64,000 bases of DNA from Candidatus Dojkabacteria bacterium (GCA_012842045.1 DUTP01000003.1:2532-66531), one strand, 5' to 3'; counted from the stretch's first letter, positions 1 to 55,420 are shown. Numbers and translations: made by a program. Notes: generated by a model from the sequence alone, not told the origin.

Positions 1-3000
1 CTCTCCGGACGATTAAATGAATTAGTACCTAAAACAGAAAATTTAGACATACTTGTTGGCTATTTTTACATAAGCGGTTTCTATCAGTTATATAAAAACC
101 TTGAAGAGGTAGATAAGATAAGGATTTTAATCGGACTTAATACAGAATCACAGGTGGTAGATGCTGTACAAGGTAATTTGGAAATACCTTTCGAATCAGC
201 AAAGAAAGTCAAGGACAGCATAAGTAAAAAATATATTGATGAAGTTGCAGCTGCAGATGACGATGTGAATGTAGAAGAAGGAATGTTGAAGTTTGTAGAG
301 TGGTTACAGAGTGGAAAGTTACAGATAAAGATTTATGACAAGGCACCTCTTCATGCAAAGCTATATATCTTCACATTTAATGAAGGACAATTAGATCCAG
401 GTAGGGTAATTACTGGGTCTAGTAATCTTACAAGATCTGGGTTAAAGGAAAACTTAGAATTTAATGTTGAGTTGAAGAATAGCAATGATTATAAATTTGC
501 ATTAGAGAACTTTAATGCTTTATGGGATGAAGCAATAGAACTTTCTGAAACCCTCAATGAAACTATAACTAAGAAGACTCACCTTAACGAAGAAATTACT
601 CCATATCAACTCTATCTTAAATTCCTCTATGAGTATTTTAGAGAAGATTTAACTGTAGACACAGAAATAGAAGACTATATTCCAGATGGATATTTAGAAC
701 TGGAGTATCAGAAACAGGCAGTAGTCAATGCAAAGAAGATAATAGAAGAGTACGGTGGTGTTTTCATCTCAGATGTTGTTGGTCTGGGCAAAACATACAT
801 CACGGCAAGATTGTTAAATGTTTTAGGAGGTAAGACATTGGTGATTGCATCTCCTGCATTGATTGCGAAAGATAATCCAGGCTCGTGGACTAATGTTTTG
901 ATGGACTTTGGCGTAAGAGGTTTTGAGTGTGAATCTGTTGGTATGTTAGAAAAAATTCTTGAGAGAGGTGTTGATAAGTTTGATAATGTTGTTATTGATG
1001 AATCTCATAATTTTAGAAATGAAGCGACACTGTCTTTTGAAAGACTTACAGAGATATGTAGAGGTAAAAAAGTTGTCTTGGTAAGTGCTACTCCGTTTAA
1101 TAACAAACCGAGTGATTTATTAGCGCAGATTAAGCTCTTCCAAAACAGCAGGAAAAGTACTATTCCAGGGGTACCCAATCTAGAGGCATACTTTTCTAGC
1201 CTAAAATCTAGAATAGGGCAGTTAAGTAGAAGAGATAATTATGAACAGTATATGGAAGTGGCGAAAAGCAATGCTCAAGATATTAGAAATAATATTTTGA
1301 AATATCTGATGGTAAGAAGGACTAGATCTGAGATAGAGAAATATTATAGTGATGATTTGAAAAAACAAGGATTGAAATTTCCAGAAGTACATGAACCGGA
1401 ACCGATATTCTATCAACTTGATAGTGAAGAGGAAGGTGCTTTTAACAAGACAATCTCTTTTATAGAGAATTTTAAGTATAGTCGTTACATCCCATTACTT
1501 TACTATACAGGAGAGTTGACTGAGCAAGAAAGGATTTCTCAGAGAAATATGCTTACATTCATGAAAATGCTTCTACTTAAGAGGTTTGAGAGTAGTGTGT
1601 TTGCATTTAAGAAAACACTCAAAAGATTTATTCGTTCATATGAGTTAATGATAAATCAGTTCGACCAAGGGAATGTATATGTAAGCAAAAAGAGAGCAAA
1701 CAAGGTTTTCCAATTGTTAGAGGAAAACAGGATAGAGGAACTAATGGATTTGATTGAGCAGGAGAAAGTAGAGTTTTATAAGAGTGAGGATTTCAATGAG
1801 AATTTCCGAAAGGATTTGGAGTATGATTTATCTCTTTTAAGAAATCTGGATGAAATATGGGAAAATATAGATAGAGATGTGAAGTTTGAAACTTTTGTTG
1901 AAAAATTAAAGTCAGATAAGATACTAAGTAATAATAAATTAATAATATTCACAGAATCTAAAGAAACAGCCAACTATCTGTCAGAAAAAATAGAGGAACG
2001 GCTAGGTGAAGAAAATCTTAACTATACTGGTGATTCAGCAACAGCTCTAAGAGCAGATGTGATTAAGAACTTTGATGCTAAAGCTCCTAAGAAGGAGAAT
2101 ATTTACAGAATTCTTGTTACAACTGAGGTATTAGCTGAGGGTGTAAACCTACATCAGTCTAATGTTGTTATTAACTATGATATCCCATGGAATCCAACAC
2201 GACTAATGCAAAGGGTTGGAAGAATAAATCGTGTTGATACAAAGTTCAAAGATATATATACATACAACATCTTCCCTTCTGTACAATCTAATGACATTCT
2301 TAAGTTAAAAGAGGCAGCAGAAGCTAAGATACAAATGTTCATAGAACTCTTAGGTAATGATGCAAGATTACTCACAGAAGGAGAGGAGATTAAATCAAAC
2401 GAATTGTTTGATAAGTTATCATCTAAAGAAACCATTATTGGTGAAACAGAAGAAGATAGTGAGCTTAAATATCTAACTGTTATTAAAGATATTCGAGATA
2501 AAAATGTAGAACTGTTTAGTCAGATTAAAAACTTACCTAAAAAATCTCGTTCTGCTCGAAGATTAGAACAACAATCAGGTAAACTTTTGACATATTTTAA
2601 GAAAGGGAAGCTTGATAAGTTTATCATCTCTGGTAGTAAAGAACCCCAAGAGTTAGGTTTTCTTGAAGCTATAAAACTATTTGAATGTAAAGAAGATACA
2701 AAGAGAGTAAATATTCCTTCTAGTTTCTACAAACAGATTAAAAAGAATAAGGAATACTTTGGAAGTATAACCTCAGAGGAAGGTGGGATGGTTCTTGAAA
2801 CTAGAACAGGAGCATTAGACAGGAAAATTCTAAAAAGATTAAATGCAAATACAGTAAAAAGATTTGATGGATTTACTGAAGAACAAGAGGAATATCTAGA
2901 GATTGTAAAGCAGAAAATTGATGAGGGTGCTTTACCTAAGAATTCTGCTAAAAGGATTTGGGGTAAAATGAAGAATATGGTGAAGCCATTAGAGATAGTT

Positions 3001-3111
3001 AGTTTACTTCAAAAAGAAATTTCACCAAACCTTCTTAAAGATACACATTCTCAAGCTAAAGAAAGTGTATCTAATGTCAAAGAAGTTATATTATCTGAGT
3101 ATTTTGAATAA
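1..3111 (+). CDS. PLD-family (HKD) nuclease domain fused to SNF2-like SF2 helicase; 5' end lies outside the window (restriction-subunit-like)
   Basis: Frame 1 is open from nt 1 (LSGRLNELVPKTENLDILVGYFYISGF..., no stop before 154), so the track start at 154 is an artefact. HKD motif HAKLYIF...GSSNLTRSG. Helicase motifs VGLGKTYIT (I), VIDESHNF (II), SATPFNN (III), QRVGRINR (VI). Stop TAA overlaps the downstream ATG (TAATG at 3109-3113). Confidence 0.8.
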   Translation, partial: LSGRLNELVPKTENLDILVGYFYISGFYQLYKNLEEVDKIRILIGLNTESQVVDAVQGNLEIPFESAKKVKDSISKKYIDEVAAADDDVNVEEGMLKFVEWLQSGKLQIKIYDKAPLHAKLYIFTFNEGQLDPGRVITGSSNLTRSGLKENLEFNVELKNSNDYKFALENFNALWDEAIELSETLNETITKKTHLNEEITPYQLYLKFLYEYFREDLTVDTEIEDYIPDGYLELEYQKQAVVNAKKIIEEYGGVFISDVVGLGKTYITARLLNVLGGKTLVIASPALIAKDNPGSWTNVLMDFGVRGFECESVGMLEKILERGVDKFDNVVIDESHNFRNEATLSFERLTEICRGKKVVLVSATPFNNKPSDLLAQIKLFQNSRKSTIPGVPNLEAYFSSLKSRIGQLSRRDNYEQYMEVAKSNAQDIRNNILKYLMVRRTRSEIEKYYSDDLKKQGLKFPEVHEPEPIFYQLDSEEEGAFNKTISFIENFKYSRYIPLLYYTGELTEQERISQRNMLTFMKMLLLKRFESSVFAFKKTLKRFIRSYELMINQFDQGNVYVSKKRANKVFQLLEENRIEELMDLIEQEKVEFYKSEDFNENFRKDLEYDLSLLRNLDEIWENIDRDVKFETFVEKLKSDKILSNNKLIIFTESKETANYLSEKIEERLGEENLNYTGDSATALRADVIKNFDAKAPKKENIYRILVTTEVLAEGVNLHQSNVVINYDIPWNPTRLMQRVGRINRVDTKFKDIYTYNIFPSVQSNDILKLKEAAEAKIQMFIELLGNDARLLTEGEEIKSNELFDKLSSKETIIGETEEDSELKYLTVIKDIRDKNVELFSQIKNLPKKSRSARRLEQQSGKLLTYFKKGKLDKFIISGSKEPQELGFLEAIKLFECKEDTKRVNIPSSFYKQIKKNKEYFGSITSEEGGMVLETRTGALDRKILKRLNANTVKRFDGFTEEQEEYLEIVKQKIDEGALPKNSAKRIWGKMKNMVKPLEIVSLLQKEISPNLLKDTHSQAKESVSNVKEVILSEYFE

Positions 3112-6100
3112 TGACAGAGCAAGAATCAAAGAAGCTCATAACAGAGACTTTTGAAAATGATTTTGATGAGGAGAGATTTAAAAGATTCATAGCTAATTTA
3201 CTAACAGAGTTTCAAGGTGTATCAAAACATACAGATAATCAATATGTCAAGGATGCATATAAACAATATATTGAATCATATGATGTAATAGGTAAATTCT
3301 CAGATTCGCAGAAGAAAACGGTAGATGTTTTAATTGTATATCTAAAGACAGAATCGACATTTACAGCACGAACCCGTCAGAGAAACTTTGCTTTAGATTA
3401 CTTAGAAAGCAAAGCTAAGGATGGTATTTTAATTGCATATGTTCATAAGAATAAAAAGGATTGGAGATTTTCATTTGTTAAATTGGAGAGTGATGTAATA
3501 CAGGATGAAGAAGGTAGAGTTAGGGATGTTTCAATCTTTACTGCTGCTAAAAGGTCATCTTTTCTAGTTGGTTCTAATGAGAATTCATATACTGCTAAAA
3601 AACAATTTTTACCTATTCTTCAGAAGGAAGAGAAACCAACATTTGAAGATATTGAGGAGGCCTTTAGTGTAGAGACAGTAACAAAAGAATTCTTTAATAA
3701 ATATAGAGAACTTTTCCATGATGTACACGAAGCGTTAGAGAAAGAAATTAAGAAGAAACCACATATAAAAGAAGAATTTGAAACAAAAGAGATTTCAACT
3801 GTGGACTTTGCAAAAAAGTTGTTAGGACAGATGGTTTTCCTCTACTTCCTACAAAAGAAGGGATGGTTTGGAGTTGCACCTAAAGAGGAGTGGGGTACAG
3901 GTCCGAAGAATTTCTTAAGAAAACTATTTGAGAGAAAGGATAATTATGGTGAGAATTTCTTTAATGATGTTTTAAAGCCACTCTTCTATGATGCACTAGC
4001 ACAGGATCGAGGACGAGATGCAATATACTCGAGACTTAATAATTGTAGAATGCCATTTCTTAATGGAGGACTTTTTGAACCAATGAGAGGGTATTCTTGG
4101 GAGACTACTGATATATTATTGCCAGATGAGCTTTTCTCAAACGAGGATAAAGAAGGAGAAGATGTTGGTACTGGTATTTTAGATGTGTTTGACAGGTACA
4201 ATTTTACTGTAAATGAGAGTAATCCATTGGAGAAAGAGGTTGCTGTTGATCCTGAAATGTTGGGTAAGGTGTTTGAAAATCTTTTGGATGTTAAAGACAG
4301 AAAAAGTAAAGGATCTTACTATACTCCTAGAGAGATAGTTCACTATATGTGTCAAGAATGTCTAATAAACTACCTTGAAACAGAAACAAAAGGAGAAATT
4401 CCTAGAGACGATATTGAGAACCTGTTACTTCATGGTGAGTCCATTATACAGAATGACTTTGTTACTTTAGAAAAACAAAGAGAAAAGGAAGAGAAAGGGT
4501 ATAAGTATTCTGGTGAATATAAGTTAAAACTTCCAGAGTCTATACGAAAGAATGCTAGAAAGATAGATGATTTACTTAAAGATGTTAAAGTTTGTGATCC
4601 AGCAGTAGGTTCTGGAGCATTTCCATTAGGAATGATAAACGAAATTGTTGGAGCAAGACGGGTGCTTCAGGTTTACTTAAGAGATAGACTTACTATATAT
4701 GATCTTAAGTATCATGCTATTGCTAATTCTATTCATGGCGTTGATTTAGATCCAGGAGCAGTAGATATTGCAAGACTTAGACTTTGGCTTTCTTTGGTAG
4801 TTGAGGAAGAGAATCCAAGACCTCTACCTAATCTTGAACACAGAATTATGCAGGGTAACAGTTTAATATCAGAATATGAAGGGATACCGCTTTTTAACAG
4901 AGAGCTTCTTTCTGAGTTTAATAAGGAGAAATTTGTACAGTTAGGTTTTATCTTTGGTTCTGGTATTAAGAAGAAGATGGAGGAGTTAGAAAGAAGTATT
5001 AAAATGTATGTAGGTACTTCACAAAGATCAGTTAAAGAGTCTTTGGGGGATAGAATAGATGAATTGAGGTGGGAATTGATAGAGGAGACATTAAAAGAGC
5101 AGAATAAGTTAGAAAAGGTAGATGAAATTCGGGAATTAAGAGAGAAGAGTATAAGACCTTTCTTTATATGGGAGTTAGAATTTAGTGAAGTATTTATGAA
5201 AAAGGGTGGTTTTGATATTGTTATTGGAAATCCTCCGTATGTTCAACTGCAGAAAAATCATGGGGAATTAGCTAAAATGTATGAAGATACTGGTTTTAAA
5301 ACATTTACAAGGACAGGTGATATTTATACCTTGTTTTATGAAAAAGGTAATGAAATCTTACATTCCAATGGATACTTGGCATACATTACATCTAATAAAT
5401 GGATGAGAGCTGGATACGGAGAGAAGCTGAGGAAATATTTATCAGAAGAAACAACACCTACTGTTTTAATTGATTTGGGGCCAAATATTTTCGAAACAGC
5501 TACTGTTGATACAAACATTTTAATTTTTAGGAAGGGCTTTTCCGACAAGAAATGTAGATCTTGTATTTTAAGGGAAAACTTTAAGAAAAGTGGTCTTTAT
5601 CTACATGAATATGTGAAGTCAAATAATATCTTACTTGATAAGTTTACTAGTGATAGTTGGTTAATACTTTCCCCTATAGAACGAAGTATTAAAGAGAAAA
5701 TAGAGAAATATGGAACTCCTTTAAAGGATTGGGATATAAAGATTTACAGAGGTATCCTTACAGGTTGTAATGAGGCATTTATTATCGATGGGAAAAAGAA
5801 GGATGAATTAATAAAACAAGATCCTAAATCTGCTGACATTATACGACCGATTTTGAGAGGAAGGGACATAAAAAGGTTTAGTTATGACTTTGCTGATTTA
5901 TATTTAATAAATACACATAATGGAATCGAACAAAAAGGAATACCTCCTGTAAAAATTGATAATTACCCTGCAGTTAAGAAACACTTAGATACTTATTATT
6001 CTAAGCTCAAAGAGAGGGATGATAAAGGAATAACACCATATAACCTTCGTAGCTGTGCTTATATGGAGGAATTTAATAAGCAGAAAATCGTCTATTCAGA

Positions 6101-6425
6101 GATAGTACAAAGTCCTCAGTTTTTTCTTGACAAAAGAGGAGAATTCTTTGTCGAAGCTACTAGCTTTTTAATAACTGGTGAACATTTAGACTACTTAGTA
6201 GATTGGTTAAACTCACCAACAATTGCATGGGTATTCAAACAATTCTATGCTGGTGGAGGGCTAGGGAAAAAGGGGTTCAGATACAAGAAGAAATTCTTAG
6301 AACAATTACCTATTCCAAAACCTAGAAATGATATGAAATATAAAAATACTAATAATTTGATAAAGGCTTATTTGGATCTAACTGACGAAGAGATAAATTT
6401 CATTTCCTCATCTGTTAATTTGTAA
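3111..6425 (+). CDS. gamma-class N6-adenine DNA methyltransferase, Eco57I/TaqI-like family, with C-terminal target-recognition domain (TRD-1, inside the invertible segment)
   Basis: Motifs GSYYTPREIV, CDPAVGSGAFPL (SAM-binding FxGxG), GNPPYVQLQ (NPPY catalytic motif). 1104 aa. The C-terminal ~195 aa are homologous to the convergent ORF 6368..6958. Confidence 0.85.
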   Translation: MTEQESKKLITETFENDFDEERFKRFIANLLTEFQGVSKHTDNQYVKDAYKQYIESYDVIGKFSDSQKKTVDVLIVYLKTESTFTARTRQRNFALDYLESKAKDGILIAYVHKNKKDWRFSFVKLESDVIQDEEGRVRDVSIFTAAKRSSFLVGSNENSYTAKKQFLPILQKEEKPTFEDIEEAFSVETVTKEFFNKYRELFHDVHEALEKEIKKKPHIKEEFETKEISTVDFAKKLLGQMVFLYFLQKKGWFGVAPKEEWGTGPKNFLRKLFERKDNYGENFFNDVLKPLFYDALAQDRGRDAIYSRLNNCRMPFLNGGLFEPMRGYSWETTDILLPDELFSNEDKEGEDVGTGILDVFDRYNFTVNESNPLEKEVAVDPEMLGKVFENLLDVKDRKSKGSYYTPREIVHYMCQECLINYLETETKGEIPRDDIENLLLHGESIIQNDFVTLEKQREKEEKGYKYSGEYKLKLPESIRKNARKIDDLLKDVKVCDPAVGSGAFPLGMINEIVGARRVLQVYLRDRLTIYDLKYHAIANSIHGVDLDPGAVDIARLRLWLSLVVEEENPRPLPNLEHRIMQGNSLISEYEGIPLFNRELLSEFNKEKFVQLGFIFGSGIKKKMEELERSIKMYVGTSQRSVKESLGDRIDELRWELIEETLKEQNKLEKVDEIRELREKSIRPFFIWELEFSEVFMKKGGFDIVIGNPPYVQLQKNHGELAKMYEDTGFKTFTRTGDIYTLFYEKGNEILHSNGYLAYITSNKWMRAGYGEKLRKYLSEETTPTVLIDLGPNIFETATVDTNILIFRKGFSDKKCRSCILRENFKKSGLYLHEYVKSNNILLDKFTSDSWLILSPIERSIKEKIEKYGTPLKDWDIKIYRGILTGCNEAFIIDGKKKDELIKQDPKSADIIRPILRGRDIKRFSYDFADLYLINTHNGIEQKGIPPVKIDNYPAVKKHLDTYYSKLKERDDKGITPYNLRSCAYMEEFNKQKIVYSEIVQSPQFFLDKRGEFFVEATSFLITGEHLDYLVDWLNSPTIAWVFKQFYAGGGLGKKGFRYKKKFLEQLPIPKPRNDMKYKNTNNLIKAYLDLTDEEINFISSSVNL
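5839..5866 (+). repeat. left inverted repeat (28 bp, ttatacgaccgattttgagaggaaggga) inside the methyltransferase gene
   Basis: Perfect reverse complement of 6945..6972. Encodes IRPILRGRD in both genes. Imperfect similarity continues ~30 nt inward. Confidence 0.85.
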
Positions 6426-6944
6426 AGTTTTTGAATGTCGTGTAAAGAGTGTTTTCTATTCTCAATATTTAATGGTATCGGAAGTAATAATAGACGATTA
6501 ACTTTTAATTCTCCTTCAATACCACCTCCCATATAAAAATGTCGTAAAGCAAAATAACAGACATCAGAGGTCAAAAAGCTTTCTAAAGGTATAATATTTG
6601 TACCTGTTATTATATTTCCAGGTGCTACTACCATATACTCTTTAGGCACTATTGAGAAAAATGCGCCTCCTGTCATTATTGCAGGGAAAGCTATTTTCTG
6701 CTTATTAAATTCCTCCCAATAACCTATACTATCTTGTGTCTCAAACCATTTGTTATTAGTTTTCTTTCTTGCATTATTTCCTTTAATTCCATAAACATTT
6801 TTCTTACCTGATTGTTCTAACTTCTCTTTTCCAAAAGTTAGAAGATAGTCTTTTACAGCTGGATAGTCATCGATGTTATAGTTTCTAGAAGGAAAAGTTG
6901 CGATTATCCATTTATCTGCAAACTCATAAGAATACCTCTTTATA
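5867..6944. other. putative invertible DNA segment (TRD shufflon) containing two convergent, homologous TRD-coding halves
   Basis: Bounded by perfect 28-bp inverted repeats. Midpoint (~6406) falls inside the 58-nt convergent overlap of the two TRD reading frames. The codon phase is preserved across the repeats, so inversion yields an in-frame fusion. Confidence 0.7.
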
Positions 6945-6958
6945 TCCCTTCCTCTCAA
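6368..6958 (-). other. promoterless alternative TRD cassette (TRD-2), inverted homolog of the methyltransferase C-terminus
   Basis: Begins LRGRDIKRYSYEFADKW (TTG, no ATG) matching ILRGRDIKRFSYDFADLY of the methyltransferase. Shares EEFNKQKI, GGG and LPIP motifs and the terminal LTDEE.FISSSV. Reading frame stays open upstream through the repeat (RPILRGRD). Confidence 0.75.
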
Positions 6959-6972
6959 AATCGGTCGTATAA
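6945..6972 (-). repeat. right inverted repeat (28 bp), partner of 5839..5866
   Basis: tcccttcctctcaaaatcggtcgtataa is the exact reverse complement of the left repeat. Confidence 0.85.
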
Positions 6973-7012
6973 ATACTACAATAAATGTATTAAATTATTA
7001 AAAAATACATAT

Positions 7013-7621
7013 ATGATTTACGGTTACATTAGAGTTAGTACAGATAAACAAACCTTAGAAAATCAAAGGTTTGAAATACATAATTTTTGTAAACAAAGAG
7101 GATTAGTAATCAATTCTTGGATAGAGGAAACAATATCTGGTACTAAAGGGGTGAATGAAAGAAAACTAGGAAGATTATTACACAAGCTTAAAAAAGAGGA
7201 TATACTAATCTGTTCTGAACTATCTCGTTTAGGGAGAAATATGTTTATGATTATGTCTATTCTAAACTACTGTATGGAGAATGAGATAGAGGTGTGGACA
7301 GTAAAGGATGGATATAGGTTAGGAATAGATATTAGTTCTAAAGTTCTAGCTTTTGCTTTTGGTTTAGCAGCAGAGATAGAAAGAAATTTAATTAGTCAGA
7401 GAACCAAAGAAGCTTTAGCAAGAAAAAGAGCAGAGGGAGTAATTCTTGGAAGACCTAAAGGTCGAAAGTCCTCATATTATAAATTAACAGGTAGAGATGC
7501 AAGTATTAAGAGGCTTTTAGATAAAAATTTACCAAAAACAAGTGTAGCTAAAATTCTTGGAGTACATAGAAATACACTAGATAGATATTTAAAAAATTCA
7601 TACAAATACTCTACGACTTAA
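7013..7621 (+). CDS. small serine recombinase, Hin/Gin/Pin-type DNA invertase (resolvase family) with C-terminal HTH
   Basis: N-terminal IYGYIRVSTDKQTLENQ (catalytic Ser motif). 202 aa. C-terminal KTSVAKILGVHRNTLDRYLK helix-turn-helix. Starts 40 bp after the right inverted repeat. Confidence 0.8.
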   Translation: MIYGYIRVSTDKQTLENQRFEIHNFCKQRGLVINSWIEETISGTKGVNERKLGRLLHKLKKEDILICSELSRLGRNMFMIMSILNYCMENEIEVWTVKDGYRLGIDISSKVLAFAFGLAAEIERNLISQRTKEALARKRAEGVILGRPKGRKSSYYKLTGRDASIKRLLDKNLPKTSVAKILGVHRNTLDRYLKNSYKYSTT

Positions 7622-7657
7622 TCTTGCCCTCCCTCTCCACACCCCATATAATAAACC

Positions 7658-8434
7658 ATGTCTAAACTAAAAAAATATCTTCCTCTTCTCCTACTACTAA
7701 TCATATGTATATCCATATACATATATATAACAAATAAAAAAACACCAGAACAAATATCATTTGAAAAGAAATACTCATTAGAACTAAAAGAATTAAAGAA
7801 AACATATAACATAGATAAATATATATATGATTGGAATAAGGATATAGAAGGATATAAACAAATAGATCAATTAGTAAACAAACCTAAATATCAATTAACT
7901 AGAGAAAAATCAGATGTAAATGTAATATGGACATTAAAAGATGAATATACACTAGAACTAAACTGTCCTAAAGAAGATATAGATAACATTGTATATGGAG
8001 ATCCTAAAGGTTGTAATCTGAAATATAACGGTAATGTAGTAGAAGATAATGTAAGGTATGAAGTATGGGAAGATGAAGGGAGTATAGAAGGGGAGGTAAG
8101 TATGGTCATATATTCATCTAGTAAATACGAATACCTAGTAGTAGGGAAATGGGAGAGTGGTTCTAAGGATAGTATAACCATCTACAGACTAGAAGATGGA
8201 AAAGCTGTTAAAATACCGTTTAACACTAAAGATAAAAAAGAAGATAGTTGGATAGTAGAACACCCCATGTCCCTCTGGTTGTATGACAACCAAGGTAAGA
8301 AGAAGTTAGTAACATCTATCCATGACCCATCTATGTCCCATATACAAGTATTTAGAATATGGAAACCTCAAGGCGATTCTTTCATATTAGAGCAAACAAT
8401 TGGTGATATACCATTAGAAAGCTTTAAGGATTAA
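7658..8434 (+). CDS. hypothetical membrane-anchored protein
   Basis: N-terminal hydrophobic segment LPLLLLLIICISIYIYI. No recognised domain. Confidence 0.4.
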   Translation: MSKLKKYLPLLLLLIICISIYIYITNKKTPEQISFEKKYSLELKELKKTYNIDKYIYDWNKDIEGYKQIDQLVNKPKYQLTREKSDVNVIWTLKDEYTLELNCPKEDIDNIVYGDPKGCNLKYNGNVVEDNVRYEVWEDEGSIEGEVSMVIYSSSKYEYLVVGKWESGSKDSITIYRLEDGKAVKIPFNTKDKKEDSWIVEHPMSLWLYDNQGKKKLVTSIHDPSMSHIQVFRIWKPQGDSFILEQTIGDIPLESFKD

Positions 8435-12975: not shown

Positions 12976-13223
12976 TGAGATAATTTCTTATCTCTAAGTA
13001 CAATTAAAAATTGTTTATCAACATACTTCTCTTTTGTTTTATCATAATGATGAGCAAATACTTCATCTTCTGTTAATTCAGAAAGATGTCTTTTTGATAA
13101 ATCTTTATACTCTATACTAGCTCTTCCTAAGTAATATTGATTTTCCCAAAGAGCAATGAACCAATGATCTGTTTCAAAGAGAATTATTTGATTAGGGTAT
13201 GTGGGGTGTGTTTTGTAATTCAT
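12960..13223 (-). CDS. hypothetical protein (overlaps downstream Nudix gene by 16 nt)
   Basis: 87-aa ORF in an operon-like overlap with the flanking genes. Confidence 0.3.
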   Translation of the reverse strand: MNYKTHPTYPNQIILFETDHWFIALWENQYYLGRASIEYKDLSKRHLSELTEDEVFAHHYDKTKEKYVDKQFLIVLRDKKLSHWEIA

Positions 13224-14023
13224 AGTTCCTTCTTAAATATAATAACCCCTTCCTCTTCTTTCAAAACACCTCCCTTATCCTCTATGTACTCTAATATTTC
13301 ATTCTGTATATCTATTGGTATAGAAATCCAATCAATATTTAAATAAAACTCTACTAATGCTATTACTTCATCAAAGTTTTCTTCATATGGGAATCTAAGT
13401 TCTGATTCATTAAGTATTAATTCTGTATTACCTGATTGTTCTTTTAATATACCCAAAGCTTTGTTATAACTTCTTGGCTTCCAATCTTCAGGATATCTAC
13501 TAGGAACTAACATACTCTTAAATCTTTTCTTGAAATCTGTTACTTCATCTATACCTCTCTCTATCCATATTAAAGTACCTGAATCTTCTAAGAGTGAGAT
13601 AAGTTGTGATAGGAATATTGAATATTCATCTTCAGGAAAATGATATAGGTGTGATGCAAGAATAATATCAAATTTATTTTTGTTCTCTGCATGAAAATCT
13701 TCAAAAGTTTCATTTATAGCCTTACAATTACTGTATTGTTGTATATTTGTCTTTAGTGTTTTGAATAGATCCTTTGCTGGTTCTAAGAATGTAATTTCAA
13801 AATTATTTTCTTCAGGAAGAGATTGTAGAAGATATGATCCATCTCCAGAACCCACATCTAGAATTCTGTTCTGATTGTTCTTAAATCTAGAGAGTATTTT
13901 TTGAAGTTGTATCGTTGATGTATCTTTTTGAGTTGAGTATTTAAGATATATTTCATAGGGGATTAGTGTATTAGCTTTCTGTGTATATTGATGGTTAAGA
14001 GTAGATAGTTGTGGTTTCTTCAT
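13220..14023 (-). CDS. class I SAM-dependent methyltransferase
   Basis: Motif I ILDVGSGDGSY. 4-nt overlap with the downstream gene. Confidence 0.65.
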   Translation of the reverse strand: MKKPQLSTLNHQYTQKANTLIPYEIYLKYSTQKDTSTIQLQKILSRFKNNQNRILDVGSGDGSYLLQSLPEENNFEITFLEPAKDLFKTLKTNIQQYSNCKAINETFEDFHAENKNKFDIILASHLYHFPEDEYSIFLSQLISLLEDSGTLIWIERGIDEVTDFKKRFKSMLVPSRYPEDWKPRSYNKALGILKEQSGNTELILNESELRFPYEENFDEVIALVEFYLNIDWISIPIDIQNEILEYIEDKGGVLKEEEGVIIFKKEL

Positions 14024-15946: not shown

Positions 15947-17035
15947 ATGAATAGAATTGATATAAAAAATAAAAAGGAAGAAGCAATTAAAAAAGCCATT
16001 GAAGTTTTAAAAAATGGTGGTTTAATTGTATATCCAACAGAGACATGTTATGGATTAGGTGGTGATGCAACAAACCCAGAAGCTCTTAAGAAGATTATGC
16101 AGTACAAAAAGCTCAGGGGTTCTAAACCAATATCAATTGCAGTATCAGATAAAGAGATGGCTGAAGAATACGTAGAGCTTAATGAAATGGCTGAGAATCT
16201 TTACAAAAACTATCTACCAGGACCAATTACAGTAGTATCAATGAGTAAAGGTAATCTTGTTCCACCAGTAGTATCCCAACAAGGAGCAGTAGGTATTAGA
16301 TATCCAGACTATAACTTCACTCTAGAATTGATTAAAAAGTTTGGTAAACCAATTACTGCAACATCAGCAAATATGTCATATAGATCAGCACCGTACAGTA
16401 TTGACCAATTGATTAAAGATTTACCTAAGAAAAGTTTAGATTTAATAGATCTCTTTTTAGATGCAGGTGAGTTGCCTAAGAATCAACCATCTACTGTTCT
16501 AGACACTACATTGAACGAGCTTTCGGTATTAAGACAGGGGAAGATAGAGTTTGAGGATGCATTGGTTAAGAACAAGAAGATTTTGGAAGTAGAGACAAAG
16601 AGTGAGGAAGAGACAATTAAGTTTGCTAAAGATTTTGCAGATAAGTATCTTTCTTCAGATATTCCTACTGTTGTTGCACTAAGTGGAGAACTTGGGGCTG
16701 GTAAGACACAGTTTGCTAAGGGTGTTGGAGAGTCTCTTGGTGTTAATGAGATTGTAAATTCTCCAACATATACATTAATCAATGAGTATGGGTATGTGAG
16801 AGGTGGTAAGAAGAGAGTTTTTGCCCATATGGATACTTGGAGGTTAGAGGAGGGTGAGTTAGAGAAGTCTGGATTGATAGAGCATTTGGAGAATGGTGAT
16901 ATTGTGCTGATAGAGTGGGCGGATAAGTTTTTTCAAGAGATTTCTGCTTTGTGTGATAATATGGGTATAAGGATGTTTAAGGTTGTAATTAAATATATCT
17001 CTTTGGAGGAAAGGAGTATTGAGGTATATGAGTAA
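15947..17035 (+). CDS. fusion of threonylcarbamoyl-AMP synthase (TsaC/YrdC/Sua5 domain) and TsaE (YjeE P-loop ATPase)
   Basis: N-terminal KNGGLIVYPTETCYGLG (YrdC). C-terminal VVALSGELGAGKTQFAKG (TsaE Walker A). 362 aa. Confidence 0.7.
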   Translation: MNRIDIKNKKEEAIKKAIEVLKNGGLIVYPTETCYGLGGDATNPEALKKIMQYKKLRGSKPISIAVSDKEMAEEYVELNEMAENLYKNYLPGPITVVSMSKGNLVPPVVSQQGAVGIRYPDYNFTLELIKKFGKPITATSANMSYRSAPYSIDQLIKDLPKKSLDLIDLFLDAGELPKNQPSTVLDTTLNELSVLRQGKIEFEDALVKNKKILEVETKSEEETIKFAKDFADKYLSSDIPTVVALSGELGAGKTQFAKGVGESLGVNEIVNSPTYTLINEYGYVRGGKKRVFAHMDTWRLEEGELEKSGLIEHLENGDIVLIEWADKFFQEISALCDNMGIRMFKVVIKYISLEERSIEVYE

Positions 17036-53107: not shown

Positions 53108-53266
53108 TGGTGTGGTTTTTAAATTTTAGCTGTCTTCTAGAGACCACAAATGGTCTCCCGCTCACCGACAGTCCCTTTCGGAACCATCCATAAACCTTTC
53201 GGCTTATGACCACACCAATGGCTAGCGAGACAGAAGACCATCTCTGCATTGGTGTGGTTTTTGTGC
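53104..53266 (-). ncRNA. GC-rich structured RNA element with mutually exclusive pairings (riboswitch/attenuator-like; strand uncertain)
   Basis: ~50% GC island in a 33% GC genome. Direct repeats ccattggtgtggttttt (53104-53120) and cattggtgtggttttt (53247-53262). The intervening gaccacaccaatgg (53208-53221) can pair with either copy. GAAA-capped hairpins lie between. Confidence 0.4.
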
Positions 53267-53561
53267 CATACCTACAAAAGTAGGGTTAGGCTATTCAATT
53301 GTTCCAGATTATAGCATTTTCTTTAGAAAAAAGTACAAAAAAACAAATAATAAACATATGCTGTAAAACACAACCAAAACCCTCGCCCCAACTTGCTTTT
53401 GATTATTTCCATGTTAAACAAAAATCTTGGAGAATCTTGGAATATGTTGGAAAATGTTGGTATATGTGAACTGGGTGAAATAACAGCTTTTAAGGGGTTG
53501 TAAGGCTGTTTAAACAGTTGATTACAAGCAAGCGGTGTGTTTATATGTTAAAATCTATTGA

Positions 53562-53795
53562 ATGAAAAGATTTGGTAAATCTTCTAAAAAAGAAAAGGAA
53601 GATTTTGGACTAAGAGGGTTCTTTAAGGCTGTTAAAGACATACTAGATAATCCTCAATTCACAATACGATATTCAAAAGGTAAAAAAGACATAACAGGAC
53701 ATGCTTATACAGAAGCTTCAGTAGGTGATGACCTGAATGTTGAGCATACACCAAAAGGAGAAACAAAAAGTAAAGTTATAAAAGTAGATAAATGA
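53562..53795 (+). CDS. small basic protein translationally coupled to the serine recombinase (possible directionality factor/accessory)
   Basis: 77 aa. ATGA overlap with the recombinase start at 53792. Confidence 0.35.
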   Translation: MKRFGKSSKKEKEDFGLRGFFKAVKDILDNPQFTIRYSKGKKDITGHAYTEASVGDDLNVEHTPKGETKSKVIKVDK

Positions 53796-55387
53796 ACAAT
53801 GCAGACACCAAGAAAATTAAGGTGTTGGCATATCTAAGGAAATCAACAGAAGATAACAAAGAGGGGGAGGCTAGAAGGCAAAAAAATTCAATAGAGTATC
53901 AAAGAGAGGTAGTAAAAGAAATTGCTGAGAGAAACAATTTGGAAATTGTACGATATTTTGAAGATAGTAAAACTGGGTATAAAGCTTTTCAAAGAGAAGG
54001 GTTTGATAAGATGTTAGAATTCTTCAGAGAACAAAAACATGAAGGTGTTGTCAAAGGGATAGTTTGTTCTGAACATAACAGATTAGCTAGAAATTTTGGA
54101 GATGGAGGGTTTTTGTTGTGGTATTTACAAGATGGGTTAATAAACACCATATATACATATGACAAGATCTTCACCAATTCAGCTAGTGACCAGATGATGT
54201 TGGCTATAAACTTTGCTATGTCAAAACATTCTAGCGATGAAACAAGTTGGAGAACAAAAAGAACATGGAGTCATAGAGCACATACAGAAGGACAACCACC
54301 AAATCAGCATTTAGCAGGATATAAATATACAGGTGAAAAAGGGAAGAGATTTTGGACAGTTGACAAAAAGAATGCTCCTATCGTCAAAGAAATGTTTGAG
54401 AGGTTTGCAACAGGTGAGTATACAGTAAGTGAAATTTTTGATTATGCTGTATCAGAAGGTTTAACAAGTCCTAAAAGCAAGAAAACATATGATTCAGAGA
54501 AATCAATAAGAGGGCTATTAAAGAAAAAAGAATATACAGGAATATTTATGTATGAAGGTGAGGAAATAAAAGGGAAGTATCCACCTCTTATTAGCTCCGA
54601 ACTATTTTACAAGGTGCAAGAAGTGTTGTCGGGAACAGCACATCCTAAGACACAAGGCAAGAATGAATATGCTTATACTGGCTTAGTAAAGTGTGGTGTT
54701 TGTGGTGGGAATATGTCTGGGACTATTAGAAAAGGAATAACATATTACAGATGTCTTCATCGTTATGAACCTTGTAAGAGTAATAAAGGACAACGACCTT
54801 CTTATCTAAGAGAAACTCTTATAGATGAAGAAATTACTGAACTGTTACTAAAGATTCAGGTTTCTGACAAACAGTTTAATAAGCTAATTCCTTATGTATC
54901 TGACTTTTTTGAAGATGAGAAGTCTAAATACAGATATGAGATAATTCAACTCAAGGGCAAGCTTACAGAGGCACAAAGAAATTTAGATTTTTACAATAAA
55001 GAGTTATTCACAATAAAAAGAGTTCCCGAAAAGGAAAGAGATAAAGATTGGTTAATGGATAAAGAAGGTTTAGAAGGGCTTAGAGAAAATGCTCATCAAG
55101 AAAAAGAGATGTATGAGAGACAGATTTCTAAAGCGGAAAACTTAAAAGATACAGTTCCAACTTTAATGTTTAATTTCCTTAAGGGAATAAAAATTGTTGG
55201 TAGTAGATTTAAAACAGCTTCACCCTCTAATAAGCGACAGATTGTAGATACTCTTTGCGCGAACTTTAAGTGGAATGGCAAAGAACTAAGCTGGGAGTGG
55301 AAAAAACCATACCACCTACTTACAAATTCTAATGAAAAAAGAAGATGGCTCCGCGACCAGGACTCGAACCTGGAACCGAACGGTTAA
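53792..55387 (+). CDS. large serine recombinase (phage-integrase type)
   Basis: N-terminal resolvase domain KVLAYLRKSTEDN. Recombinase domain. Zinc ribbon CGVCGGNMSG...YYRCLHRYEPC. Coiled-coil. The last 14 codons run into tRNA-Asn on the opposite strand. Confidence 0.8.
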   Translation: MNNADTKKIKVLAYLRKSTEDNKEGEARRQKNSIEYQREVVKEIAERNNLEIVRYFEDSKTGYKAFQREGFDKMLEFFREQKHEGVVKGIVCSEHNRLARNFGDGGFLLWYLQDGLINTIYTYDKIFTNSASDQMMLAINFAMSKHSSDETSWRTKRTWSHRAHTEGQPPNQHLAGYKYTGEKGKRFWTVDKKNAPIVKEMFERFATGEYTVSEIFDYAVSEGLTSPKSKKTYDSEKSIRGLLKKKEYTGIFMYEGEEIKGKYPPLISSELFYKVQEVLSGTAHPKTQGKNEYAYTGLVKCGVCGGNMSGTIRKGITYYRCLHRYEPCKSNKGQRPSYLRETLIDEEITELLLKIQVSDKQFNKLIPYVSDFFEDEKSKYRYEIIQLKGKLTEAQRNLDFYNKELFTIKRVPEKERDKDWLMDKEGLEGLRENAHQEKEMYERQISKAENLKDTVPTLMFNFLKGIKIVGSRFKTASPSNKRQIVDTLCANFKWNGKELSWEWKKPYHLLTNSNEKRRWLRDQDSNLEPNG

Positions 55388-55420
55388 CAGCCGTTTGCTC
55401 TACCATTGAGCTATCGCGGA
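55346..55420 (-). tRNA. tRNA-Asn (anticodon GTT), CCA encoded
   Basis: Reverse complement TCCGCGATAGCTCAATGGTAGAGCAAACGGCTGTTAACCGTTCGGTTCCAGGTTCGAGTCCTGGTCGCGGAGCCA. Confidence 0.85.

What the first reader, a model, noticed from the sequence alone, without database searches (positions are those of the whole stretch)
1..7621. Phase-variable restriction-modification-like module: PLD-nuclease/SNF2 helicase + Eco57I-family methyltransferase whose target-recognition domain (TRD) sits in an invertible shufflon served by a serine invertase
The last ~195 codons of the 1104-aa N6-adenine methyltransferase lie inside a 1078-bp segment (5867..6944) bounded by perfect 28-bp inverted repeats (5839..5866 and 6945..6972). 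The same segment carries, on the opposite strand, a divergent homologous TRD (6368..6958) with no ATG and no promoter. The repeats are nucleotide-identical, including wobble positions, across the conserved RPILRGRD codons. The codon phase is preserved across them, so inversion would fuse TRD-2 in frame to the methyltransferase core. A Hin/Gin-type invertase gene starts 40 bp beyond the right repeat. The upstream partner is a PLD-nuclease/SNF2-helicase ORF coupled by TAATG, i.e. a split Type ISP/Type III-like ATP-dependent restriction activity whose specificity would switch with the methyltransferase TRD. I do not recognise this combination (split PLD-helicase + gamma-methyltransferase + inversion-switched TRD + serine invertase) as a described system.
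Basis: partly seen in the sequence, partly recalled or inferred. Interest (0 to 1): 0.92.

Follow-up and report, generated by a model that had tools for sequence, protein, structure and literature searches.

The report
Invertible specificity switch in a restriction-modification methyltransferase
A small-genome (candidate phyla radiation) bacterium carries a two-gene DNA-defence module whose methyltransferase swaps its DNA-recognition tail among four versions by flipping two nested DNA segments; the switch is real and seen in nature, but this kind of system was already catalogued in 2023.

Summary
Exact 28-bp inverted repeats (5839-5866 / 6945-6972) bracket the 3' end of a 1104-aa Eco57I-family N6-adenine methyltransferase, a silent antisense TRD copy (36% identical), and a serine invertase gene starting 40 bp beyond.

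These split each TRD into halves, so four in-frame alleles are possible (1104, 1100, 1110, 1114 aa). All four arrangements occur in metagenome contigs 92-99% identical to the window, so inversion happens in nature.

The invertase is an Mpi-family member. The upstream PLD + SNF2-like helicase gene runs off the window edge, overlaps the methyltransferase by TAATG, and sits upstream in 33 of 51 related genome loci.

The claim that the combination is undescribed is wrong. Milman et al. 2023 (NAR) confirmed with long reads programmed inversions in a Cj0031-like methyltransferase with an upstream PLD+SNF helicase gene in Bacteroides ovatus.

Three points may be new:
- The host is Dojkabacteria-like (Patescibacteria).
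- The invertase and repeat core are conserved across phyla on otherwise divergent methyltransferases.
- The C-terminal cassette is mosaic.

Restriction by the PLD-helicase is inferred, not shown.

The parts
1..3111 (+). PLD (single HKD motif: LHAKLYIF...GSSNLT) + SF2/SNF2-like helicase gene, 5'-truncated by the window edge (first 17 codons missing). Presumed translocase-nuclease partner.
   Evidence: Frame open from base 1. Full-length 1053 aa in L067. Pfam PLDc_2, RE_NgoFVII, ResIII, Helicase_C. PADLOC 'HKD+Snf2' 135 bits, DrmD-like 106 bits. Helicase motifs GLGKT, DESH, SAT and QRVGRINR read in the translation.
3109..3113 (+). TAATG stop/start overlap coupling the helicase-nuclease gene to the methyltransferase gene
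3111..6425 (+). Eco57I-family gamma-class N6-adenine DNA methyltransferase, 1104 aa, in arrangement A1-B1. SAM motif DPAVGSGAF at nt 4596-4622; catalytic NPPY at nt 5229-5240.
   Evidence: Pfam Eco57I/N6_Mtase/TaqI_C. PADLOC REase_MTase_IIG 887 bits. Invariant motifs in a 40-sequence alignment. AF2 model pLDDT 81.8 resembling CamA, PglX/BrxX, MmeI and BpuSI.
3111..3650 (+). N-terminal ~180-aa alpha/beta domain of the methyltransferase. Weakly restriction-endonuclease-like fold with no conserved (D/E)xK lysine. Co-occurs with the PLD-helicase partner.
5839..5866 (+). Outer inverted repeat, left arm (28 nt, codes IIRPILRGRD)
5867..6064 (+). TRD half A1 (N-terminal half of the expressed TRD)
6065..6088 (+). 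Inner inverted repeat, left arm (24 nt, GGAGGAATTTAATAAGCAGAAAAT, codes EEFNKQKI)
6089..6692 (.). Inner invertible segment carrying TRD half B1 (6089-6425, +) and TRD half B2 (6368-6692, -), tail to tail with a 58-nt overlap
   Evidence: Found inverted at 99.2% identity in L067. State reconstructions.
6693..6716 (-). Inner inverted repeat, right arm
6717..6944 (-). TRD half A2 (N-terminal half of the silent TRD)
6368..6958 (-). Silent TRD-2 (A2-B2) as currently arranged, with no start codon of its own. It becomes the methyltransferase C-terminus after outer inversion.
   Evidence: 36% identity to TRD-1. PADLOC IIG model positions 925-1104. In-frame 1110-aa fusion.
6945..6972 (-). Outer inverted repeat, right arm
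7013..7621 (+). Mpi-family serine DNA invertase (202 aa; catalytic YIRVST motif; C-terminal HTH)
   Evidence: NCBIfam NF009949 330 bits > cutoff 272. Pfam Resolvase 6e-34 + HTH_7. 56-72% identical orthologues beside inverted TRDs in many phyla.

Best explanation
This is a phase-variable, two-gene restriction-modification-like module in a Dojkabacteria-like (Patescibacteria) chromosome.

The components are as follows.
- The methyltransferase is an Eco57I/Cj0031/MmeI-like gamma-class N6A enzyme that reads its DNA target with a C-terminal TaqI_C-type TRD.
- The last ~190 codons are built from two exchangeable halves (A and B).
- A second, promoterless A2-B2 copy lies antisense.
- The adjacent Mpi-family serine invertase recombines two nested pairs of short exact inverted repeats that lie inside conserved codons: 28 bp at RPILRGRD and 24 bp at EEFNKQKI.

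Outer inversion swaps A and B together. Inner inversion swaps B alone. The population therefore cycles among four full-length alleles: A1B1, A1B2, A2B2 and A2B1.

The presumed consequence is up to four methylation specificities, and with them the target set of the translationally coupled PLD + SNF2-like protein. That protein most likely acts as the ATP-driven translocase-nuclease on unmodified sites recognised by the methyltransferase.

Status of each step:
- Shown: the anatomy, the in-frame alleles, and the natural occurrence of all four arrangements.
- Inferred: that the invertase catalyses both inversions, that the alleles differ in specificity, and that the PLD-helicase restricts DNA.
For: Anatomy. 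All four simulated states give intact ORFs of 1104, 1100, 1110 and 1114 aa.

Natural variants in contigs 92-99% identical to the window:
- State A1B1: L068 and L081.
- State A1B2: L067 (2449 nt colinear, protein P0002), L105 and L101.
- State A2B1: L092, all 1031 nt colinear at 98.7%.
- A2B2-type junction (invertase flank | outer repeat | A1-B1): L095. The same contig carries the A1B1 junction at its other end, which implies a mixed population.

Invertase: Mpi-family above the curated cutoff. Orthologues 56-72% identical (63-72% in all but Helicobacter L064) sit next to inverted TRDs in Planctomycetota, Myxococcota, Bacteroidota, Verrucomicrobiota, Bacillota, Cloacimonadota and Campylobacterota.

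Recombination sites: repeats recur at the same two or three codon motifs in these loci. They share a nucleotide core, (C/G)GATTTT-N6-CAGA(A/G), that falls in different reading frames (SDF = AGC GAT TTT; RPIL = CGA CCG ATT TTG; EDF = GAG GAT TTT). That argues for DNA-level selection, i.e. a recombinase site.

Partnership with the PLD-helicase:
- TAATG overlap.
- The gene lies on the same strand immediately upstream in 33 of 51 genome loci.
- The methyltransferase N-domain co-occurs with it in 18 of 19 loci.
- HKD, helicase, SAM and NPPY motifs are intact.

Precedent: long-read-confirmed inversions in the same architecture in B. ovatus (PMC9881135).
Against: - No reads from the source sample were available, so switching within this very strain is not shown. 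The variants come from related strains and samples.
- Mixed-junction contigs could in principle be assembly chimeras, although the repeats (24-29 nt) are short enough that reads and the longer assembly k-mers should normally span them.
- No methylome or restriction data exist for any member with the PLD-helicase partner, as far as the searched literature shows.
- The window's own repeat arms fit the shared core only imperfectly: the outer has AAGG instead of CAGA, and the inner has GGAATTT instead of CGATTTT.
- Whether half-TRD swaps change specificity is untested for TaqI_C-type TRDs.
Confidence: 0.75

Rival explanations
1. The methyltransferase is itself a complete Type IIG/IIL enzyme, with an N-terminal PD-(D/E)XK nuclease that cuts near its site without ATP. 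The PLD-helicase is then an independent or accessory defence protein, for example Type IV-like or DISARM DrmD/DrmC-like.
Confidence: 0.12
2. The module is mainly an epigenetic phasevarion. The switching methyltransferase reprograms gene expression, and there is no restriction function.
For: Phase-variable methyltransferases, including the Type IIG Cj0031, alter gene expression (PMC4889913, listed). Genome-wide epigenetic phase variation by inverted repeats in methyltransferase genes is reported to be common in gut bacteria (PMC11741434).
Against: A nuclease-helicase gene with intact motifs is translationally coupled and is conserved upstream in 33 of 51 loci across many phyla. That is hard to explain without a DNA-targeting effector role. 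The two roles are not mutually exclusive.
Confidence: 0.08
3. Only the outer inversion is invertase-catalysed. The inner 24-bp exchange arises by RecA-type homologous recombination or gene conversion between the homologous TRDs.
For: In pneumococcal SpnD39III, some hsdS inversions proceed without the dedicated recombinase (own knowledge, not checked here). The window's inner and outer repeats share only 13 of 24 aligned positions (hand alignment).
Against: 24 bp of identity is very short for homologous recombination. Inner repeats at the same F-x-KQKI codons recur beside the same invertase family in many phyla. They share the CGATTTT-N6-CAGA core with the other repeat classes, in a different reading frame from the RPILRGRD class.
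Confidence: 0.12
4. It is a reduced BREX- or DISARM-type defence system that blocks phage without classical cleavage.
For: There are weak similarities to PglX (NCBIfam 90 bits; PDB 8c45) and DrmMI (105 bits) for the methyltransferase, and to DrmD (NCBIfam 128 bits) for the helicase.
Against: All these scores are far below the curated cutoffs (PglX 500, DrmD 610). No PglZ, BrxC, DrmA or DrmB is present in the flanks: D-Ala-D-Ala ligase lies upstream in L067, and nine downstream ORFs give no such hits.
Confidence: 0.05
5. The repeats are a relic or a coincidence of coding for conserved motifs, and the locus no longer inverts.
For: Both repeats lie in conserved peptide motifs, so some similarity is expected from coding alone.
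Against: Identity is exact at wobble positions and ends abruptly, with 0 expected by chance. All four arrangements are found among near-identical contigs. The invertase is intact.
Confidence: 0.02

Closest known systems
Programmed inversions in Cj0031-like Type II RM enzymes with an adjacent PLD + SNF helicase gene (Milman, Yelin & Kishony, NAR 2023, PMC9881135; Bacteroides ovatus CP083813.1 5322008-5329826; also CP044495.1)
   Same: Same gene architecture: a PLD+SNF2-type helicase CDS immediately upstream of an Eco57I-domain methyltransferase whose coding sequence is rearranged by inverted repeats. Mpi-family serine invertases are enriched as neighbours. Variants coexist in sequencing data.
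   Different: The host phylum here is Patescibacteria, which is not among the phyla that paper lists. I could not fetch CP083813.1 to measure identity or compare the number and position of repeats. That paper gives no biochemical mechanism either.
Type I hsdS shufflons (e.g. S. pneumoniae SpnD39III, Bacteroides fragilis, Mycoplasma pulmonis)
   Same: Nested inverted repeats inside specificity-domain coding sequence exchange half-specificity modules between an expressed and a silent copy. This gives several methylation and restriction specificities from one locus.
   Different: There the switched gene is a separate S subunit with two TRDs of a Type I (HsdR/M/S) enzyme, usually served by tyrosine recombinases. 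Here the TRD is the C-terminus of the methyltransferase itself, the recombinase is a serine invertase, and the motor-nuclease is a PLD-SNF2 protein rather than HsdR.
BREX type 1 PglX inversions (Lacticaseibacillus rhamnosus/casei; PMC9881135)
   Same: An Eco57I-type N6A methyltransferase of a defence system is diversified by nested inversions with a nearby recombinase.
   Different: PglX switches an internal segment, needs two inversions between functional forms, and works with BrxA/B/C, PglZ and BrxL. Here every single inversion gives a full-length allele, and no BREX genes are present.
Type IIG/IIL enzymes (MmeI, BpuSI, DrdV, Cj0031)
   Same: Domain order: N-terminal domain, helical linker, gamma-class methyltransferase, C-terminal TRD. 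The best PADLOC model and structural matches belong to this group.
   Different: Those are single-chain, ATP-independent nuclease-methyltransferases with a PD-(D/E)XK catalytic motif. Here the catalytic lysine is not conserved, and a separate PLD-helicase gene is coupled.
ATP-dependent PLD restriction enzymes NgoAVII/CglI and Type ISP/Type III enzymes
   Same: The concept of an NTP-driven SF2 motor combined with a nuclease that acts on sites defined by a sequence-specific module. There is a Pfam RE_NgoFVII PLD match.
   Different: - NgoAVII/CglI: the PLD is fused to a B3-like DNA-binding domain, the ATPase is separate, and the methyltransferase is a separate m5C enzyme.
- Type ISP: a single chain with an Mrr-type nuclease.
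- Type III: a beta-class Mod with an internal TRD, and Res with a PD-(D/E)XK nuclease.
Mpi, master DNA invertase of Bacteroides fragilis
   Same: Same NCBIfam equivalog family (330 bits, cutoff 272). A small serine invertase acting on short inverted repeats.
   Different: Mpi flips many promoter invertons genome-wide. Here the sites are intragenic and local: the two repeat sequences occur nowhere else in the 64-kb window.

Membership tests
Inversion-switched Eco57I/Cj0031-like methyltransferase with PLD+SNF helicase neighbour (Milman et al. 2023 class b) | Eco57I-domain Type II/IIG-like methyltransferase CDS overlapped by inverted repeats with a silent alternative segment | tested here: met
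Inversion-switched Eco57I/Cj0031-like methyltransferase with PLD+SNF helicase neighbour (Milman et al. 2023 class b) | Immediately adjacent CDS with PLD and SNF2-type helicase domains | tested here: met
   conserved in 33 of 51 loci
Inversion-switched Eco57I/Cj0031-like methyltransferase with PLD+SNF helicase neighbour (Milman et al. 2023 class b) | Coexisting orientation variants in sequence data | tested here: met
   All four states are seen among near-identical metagenome contigs, plus mixed-junction contigs. Not tested in reads of the source sample.
Inversion-switched Eco57I/Cj0031-like methyltransferase with PLD+SNF helicase neighbour (Milman et al. 2023 class b) | Sequence homology to the published B. 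ovatus locus / Cj0031 | not testable with these tools
   CP083813.1 is not in the accessible collections. Bacteroidota loci L035, L039 and L042 with the same architecture are ~32-37% identical in the methyltransferase core.
Mpi-family serine DNA invertase | Score above the NCBIfam NF009949 curated cutoff; resolvase catalytic domain with Ser nucleophile + C-terminal HTH | tested here: met
   330.3 bits vs 272. Pfam Resolvase + HTH_7. YIRVST motif.
Type IIG/IIL restriction-modification enzyme (MmeI/BpuSI/Cj0031 type) | Gamma-class N6A methyltransferase with C-terminal TRD in one chain | tested here: met
Type IIG/IIL restriction-modification enzyme (MmeI/BpuSI/Cj0031 type) | N-terminal PD-(D/E)XK endonuclease domain with catalytic D...(D/E)xK | tested here: inconclusive
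Type ISP restriction-modification enzyme (LlaGI type) | Single polypeptide: Mrr-family nuclease - SF2 helicase - methyltransferase - TRD | tested here: not met
   Two separate genes, and the nuclease is PLD/HKD rather than Mrr.
Type III restriction-modification system | Beta-class Mod with internal TRD plus Res (SF2 helicase with C-terminal PD-(D/E)XK nuclease) | tested here: not met
   The methyltransferase has gamma-class motif order (SAM motif at aa 496-504 before NPPY at 707-710) with a C-terminal TRD. The nuclease is an N-terminal PLD.
Type I restriction-modification hsdS shufflon | Separate HsdS, HsdM and HsdR genes, with inversions within hsdS | tested here: not met
   No HsdS/HsdR. The hsdM model scores 19.6 bits against a cutoff of 243.
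Class 1 DISARM | Core DrmA (helicase) + DrmB (DUF1998) + DrmC (PLD), with DrmD and DrmMI | tested here: not met
   DrmD 128 bits vs cutoff 610. No DrmA/DrmB in the flanks.
BREX type 1 | PglX together with PglZ, BrxC, BrxA/B and BrxL | tested here: not met
   PglX model 90 bits vs cutoff 500. No PglZ/BrxC among the neighbours.

The most novel reading that the evidence does not exclude
Two linked readings are not excluded.

1. The PLD-SNF2 + methyltransferase pair may be a distinct, still uncharacterised ATP-dependent restriction class. In it, the methyltransferase's N-terminal nuclease-like domain would be catalytically dead and serve to dock a PLD translocase-nuclease.

2. The C-terminal TRD shufflon together with its Mpi-type invertase may be a horizontally mobile 'specificity-switch cassette' that grafts onto unrelated methyltransferase scaffolds across at least eight phyla, including ultra-small Patescibacteria. 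The cassette would keep its recombination core, (C/G)GATTTT-N6-CAGA, conserved at the DNA level in different reading frames.

Observations consistent with the second reading:
- The invertase is 56-72% identical across phyla (63-72% in all but one locus).
- An exact 23-nt site is shared with ~35 contigs, mostly labelled human gut metagenome, whose methyltransferase cores are only 30-34% identical.
- The window protein is ~85% identical to Dojkabacteria and Saccharibacteria relatives up to about aa 700, then 25-50% identical.
Probability: 0.3. Interest if true: 0.65.

Novelty: new member of a known kind. Interest (0 to 1): 0.45.

Why it matters
This locus is a clean and compact natural example of the switch. 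It has two genes plus an invertase, two nested sites and four in-frame alleles, and every allele is seen in metagenomes.

Phase-variable specificity lets a clonal population hedge against phages that have acquired the current methylation pattern, and it can also reprogram gene expression epigenetically. Finding such a switch in a Dojkabacteria-like Patescibacterium, with a genome under about 1 Mb, suggests that even strongly reduced episymbiont-type genomes keep diversity-generating defence.

The comparative data give three things that can be tested directly:
- A candidate Mpi-family core site.
- A defined set of chimeric TRDs for mapping which half reads which bases.
- A hypothesis for the role of the PLD-SNF2 partner, which has no published biochemistry in the literature searched.

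Tried and rejected
- Pfam on the silent TRD gave no hit. PADLOC and BLASTP were needed to show homology.
- The sigma-70 promoter and terminator scan of 5500-7800 was at background and says nothing about the silence of TRD-2.
- A literature search for 'Eco57I + SNF2 + PLD + defense' returned nothing. The 2026 BREX-diversity paper (PMC12839542) mentions PLD only in passing and has nothing on inversions.
- I considered a Saccharibacteria origin because L056 is so labelled and is 98-99% identical. IleRS points instead to Dojkabacteria/WS6: named hits are 57-70% identical, and there is a 98% hit on a 763-kb contig. I therefore report 'Patescibacteria, Dojkabacteria-like'.
- I looked for a third, more upstream repeat class (GAGCGATTTT..., ~230 nt before RPILRGRD) that is present in many relatives. 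It is absent from the window.
- I looked for further copies of either repeat elsewhere in the window, as would be expected for a 'master' invertase. There are none, even with 3 mismatches.
- The Mpi consensus recalled from memory (ARACGTWCGT) matches the outer repeat at only 6 of 10 positions, so it was not used as evidence.

Full report
**1. Observation**

- The 28-mer TTATACGACCGATTTTGAGAGGAAGGGA is present at 5839-5866 (+) and as an exact reverse complement at 6945-6972. It has no other match in the 64 kb, even allowing three mismatches, and none is expected in 100 shuffles.
- Exact identity ends sharply at both ends of the 28-mer. Weaker complementarity (83% over 70 nt) continues inward because both arms encode RGRDIKR(F/Y)SY.
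- The methyltransferase ORF (3111-6425, 1104 aa) has Pfam Eco57I (2e-41), N6_Mtase and a TaqI_C specificity domain at aa 913-1068. Its SAM motif (DPAVGSGAF, aa 496-504) and catalytic NPPY (aa 707-710) are invariant in a 40-sequence alignment.
- The antisense ORF 6368-6958 is a divergent TRD. It is 36% identical to TRD-1 (E 3e-26) and matches the C-terminal 180 positions of the same PADLOC Type IIG model.
- Simulated inversion of 5867-6944 gives an in-frame 1110-aa protein.
- A 202-aa serine recombinase gene starts 40 nt past the right repeat.
- The upstream ORF overlaps the methyltransferase start by TAATG at 3109-3113.

Two corrections apply. First, the upstream ORF is open from base 1 and lacks its first 17 codons in the window; its full length is 1053 aa in a near-identical contig. 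Second, a nested repeat pair was missed, as described next.

**2. A nested second switch and four alleles**

The repeat finder reported a 30-nt, 93% complementary pair inside the segment. Its exact core is 24 nt, GGAGGAATTTAATAAGCAGAAAAT, at 6065-6088 and 6693-6716 (0 expected by chance). It encodes EEFNKQKI in both TRD copies, so each TRD is split into an N-terminal half (A1 5867-6064; A2 6717-6944, minus strand) and a C-terminal half (B1 6089-6425; B2 6368-6692, minus strand).

Reconstructing all combinations gives four uninterrupted ORFs:

| State | Allele | Length (aa) |
|---|---|---|
| S1 | A1B1 | 1104 |
| S2 | A1B2 | 1100 |
| S3 | A2B2 | 1110 |
| S4 | A2B1 | 1114 |

**3. Evidence that inversion happens**

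The protein search returned P0001 (98% identical, the same arrangement as the window) and P0002 (1100 aa). P0002's C-terminus is exactly A1 joined to B2 at EEFNKQKI. In its contig L067 (JGI 3300010351), window 6065-6722 maps inverted at 99.2% identity while both flanks are colinear.

A metagenome scan with the outer-repeat 23-mer found 43 contigs. Five are 90-99% identical to the window. Aligning these, plus L067 and L068, to the four reconstructed states gave:

| State or junction | Contigs | Detail |
|---|---|---|
| S1 (A1B1) | window, L068, L081 | colinear with the window |
| S2 (A1B2) | L067, L105, L101 | 2449 nt and 1942 nt colinear; L101 has a divergent B allele |
| S4 (A2B1) | L092 | whole 1031-nt contig colinear at 98.7% |
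| S3-type junction | L095 nt 1-664 | invertase flank, outer repeat, A1-B1 |

L095 carries the S1 junction at its other end. This is a hairpin-type contig, as expected when both orientations are present in one sample.

All four arrangements therefore exist among close relatives. Reads from the source sample were not available, so switching within this exact strain remains an inference.

**4. The recombinase and its probable site**

The recombinase scores 330 bits against NCBIfam NF009949, 'master DNA invertase Mpi family' (cutoff 272). It has the resolvase catalytic domain with YIRVST and a C-terminal HTH.

Orthologues 56-72% identical (63-72% in all but Helicobacter L064) lie next to inverted extra TRDs in loci from Planctomycetota, Myxococcota, Bacteroidota, Verrucomicrobiota, Bacillota, Cloacimonadota and Campylobacterota, and in about 35 contigs that are mostly labelled human gut metagenome.

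In these loci exact inverted repeats recur at up to three fixed places: an upstream SDF...RQ motif, RPILRGRD, and (E/D)(E/D)F-x-KQKI. The three classes share the nucleotide core (C/G)GATTTT-N6-CAGA(A/G). In L034 all three read CGATTTT-N6-CAGA. GATTTT is codon-aligned in two classes (AGC GAT TTT; GAG GAT TTT) and frame-shifted in the third (CGA CCG ATT TTG). Conservation of a DNA word across reading frames suggests selection on the DNA itself, so I propose this core as the invertase site.

The N6 spacers differ between classes. By inference, that would keep recombination within cognate pairs. The window's arms match the core imperfectly: the outer is CGATTTT-GAGAGG-AAGG and the inner is GGAATTT-AATAAG-CAGA.

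**5. The partner gene and the likely effector mechanism**

The upstream protein has one HKD-type PLD motif (Pfam PLDc_2 and RE_NgoFVII) and an SF2 helicase core (ResIII and Helicase_C above cutoff; SNF2-rel_dom just below). Its best PADLOC models are 'HKD+Snf2' (135 bits) and DrmD (106 bits). Motifs I, II, III and VI are intact.

A homologous gene lies on the same strand immediately upstream of the methyltransferase in 33 of 51 genome loci with enough flank. Six of those also carry the invertase, giving the complete architecture in Myxococcales, Verrucomicrobia, Bacteroidota (L035 and Fermentimonas L042), Bacillota and Cloacimonadales (L034 checked by Pfam).

The full-length methyltransferase AF2 model (pLDDT 81.8) resembles CamA and BseCI in the methyltransferase + TRD part. 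Over about 970-1060 alignment columns it resembles PglX/BrxX and MmeI. The profile search against PDB agrees.

This domain co-occurs with the PLD-helicase in 18 of 19 loci. Relatives without the helicase carry other N-terminal domains, such as DUF7149 + DUF7814 in the gut locus L109.

My reading, which is inference, is as follows. The methyltransferase supplies recognition and modification. Its nuclease-like N-domain is probably degenerate and may dock the partner. The PLD-SNF2 protein supplies ATP-driven translocation and cleavage. This is analogous to, but not a member of, the Type I, III, ISP or NgoAVII/CglI systems. No BREX or DISARM core genes are nearby.

**6. Mosaic origin**

Compared with its closest relatives (Dojkabacteria and Saccharibacteria MAGs), the methyltransferase is about 85% identical up to roughly aa 700 and then 25-50% identical. 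Those relatives have no invertase and no detectable TRD similarity.

Conversely, aa 831-917 are only 38% identical to those relatives but 49-75% identical to invertase-bearing loci whose catalytic cores are just 27-46% identical. The exact 23-nt outer-repeat word is shared with gut-metagenome loci whose cores are 30-34% identical.

This pattern is consistent with lateral acquisition of a C-terminal TRD + invertase cassette. Strong site-driven constraint is an alternative explanation.

**7. Host and context**

The window is chromosomal: it carries IleRS, a Sua5-TsaE fusion, iPGM and six tRNAs, with GC about 33% throughout. The named relatives of its IleRS are Candidatus Dojkabacteria/WS6 at 57-70% identity, and a 98% match sits on a 763-kb contig. 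The host is therefore a Patescibacteria (CPR), Dojkabacteria-like organism.

**8. Comparison with the literature**

Milman, Yelin & Kishony (NAR 2023, PMC9881135) report the following:
- Eco57I-domain methylases are 16-fold enriched as targets of predicted programmed inversions.
- Mpi-family invertases are 16-fold enriched as their neighbours.
- Table 3 lists long-read-confirmed inversions in 'Type II RM enzyme, homologous to Cj0031' with an immediately upstream PLD + SNF helicase CDS (B. ovatus CP083813.1; also CP044495.1).
- Homologues bearing repeats occur in three phyla.

A 2025 preprint (PMC11741434) reports thousands of putative epigenetic phase variations, including inverted repeats within methyltransferase genes next to invertases. 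The combination is therefore described at the genomic level. I found no biochemical characterisation.

**9. Verdict**

This is a new member of a known kind.

The added value lies in the four naturally observed states, the candidate invertase core, the cassette mosaicism and the CPR host.

Interest is 0.45.

Noticed in passing
window 6368-6425 (palindrome 6379-6417): The two TRD copies overlap tail to tail by 58 nt. The same DNA encodes LTDEEINFISSSV on the plus strand and LTDEEMKFISSSV on the minus strand, as an imperfect palindrome (28 of 39 positions self-complementary). In relative L015 the equivalent C-terminal motif forms a separate 35-nt inverted-repeat pair instead.
   Followed up: partly
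L069-L111 (about 35 contigs, mostly labelled human gut metagenome), e.g. L109 637-5959: The exact 23-nt outer-repeat word TTATACGACCGATTTTGAGAGGA occurs in contigs whose methyltransferase cores are only 30-34% identical to the window's. In L109, the one checked by Pfam, the N-terminus is different (DUF7149 + DUF7814) and there is no PLD-helicase. These contigs often carry a 63-71% identical Mpi-type invertase and inverted TRDs. The same switch module therefore sits on a different scaffold.
   Followed up: partly
L015, L026, L030, L034, L041, L057, L069, L083, L088, L111: Many relatives have a third, outermost repeat class (GAGCGATTTTnTnnnnCAnnA, ~230 nt upstream of RPILRGRD). It makes a larger shufflon that also moves methyltransferase aa ~833-901. 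Several gut contigs show the invertase directly abutting that fragment (e.g. L070 8147-8967), i.e. the flipped state. The window lacks this class.
   Followed up: partly
window 3111-6425 vs P0003/P0005/P0009: There is a mosaic breakpoint in the methyltransferase. Identity to the nearest relatives is ~85% up to about aa 700, then 25-50%. The C-terminal part is closer to invertase-bearing loci from other phyla.
   Followed up: partly
window 53792-55387 (+) and 55346-55420 (-): A 531-aa large serine recombinase (Resolvase + Recombinase + Zn_ribbon_recom) ends overlapping a tRNA-Asn gene. This may be the edge of an integrated element.
   Followed up: no
window 53167-53292 (-): Rfam LOOT RNA match (74.5 bits, gathering score 46.4), just upstream of the large serine recombinase region.
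   Followed up: no
window 15947-17035 (+): A Sua5/YrdC-TsaE fusion protein, i.e. two t6A-synthesis components in one 362-aa ORF.
   Followed up: no
window 13220-14023 (-): A 267-aa class I SAM methyltransferase with a weak PADLOC mad2 (MADS system) hit (47 bits). This is probably generic methyltransferase-fold similarity.
   Followed up: no
L056 (CAYPAR010000051.1): A 4.7-kb contig 98-99% identical to the window's PLD-helicase gene is labelled 'Candidatus Saccharibacteria'. It ends 143 codons into the methyltransferase. The window's IleRS points to Dojkabacteria, so the label or the binning may be loose.
   Followed up: partly
window 7658-8434 (+): A 258-aa ORF with an N-terminal hydrophobic segment lies directly after the invertase. 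It has no hit in Pfam, PADLOC or NCBIfam, and it is present with the locus in L081 and L105.
   Followed up: no
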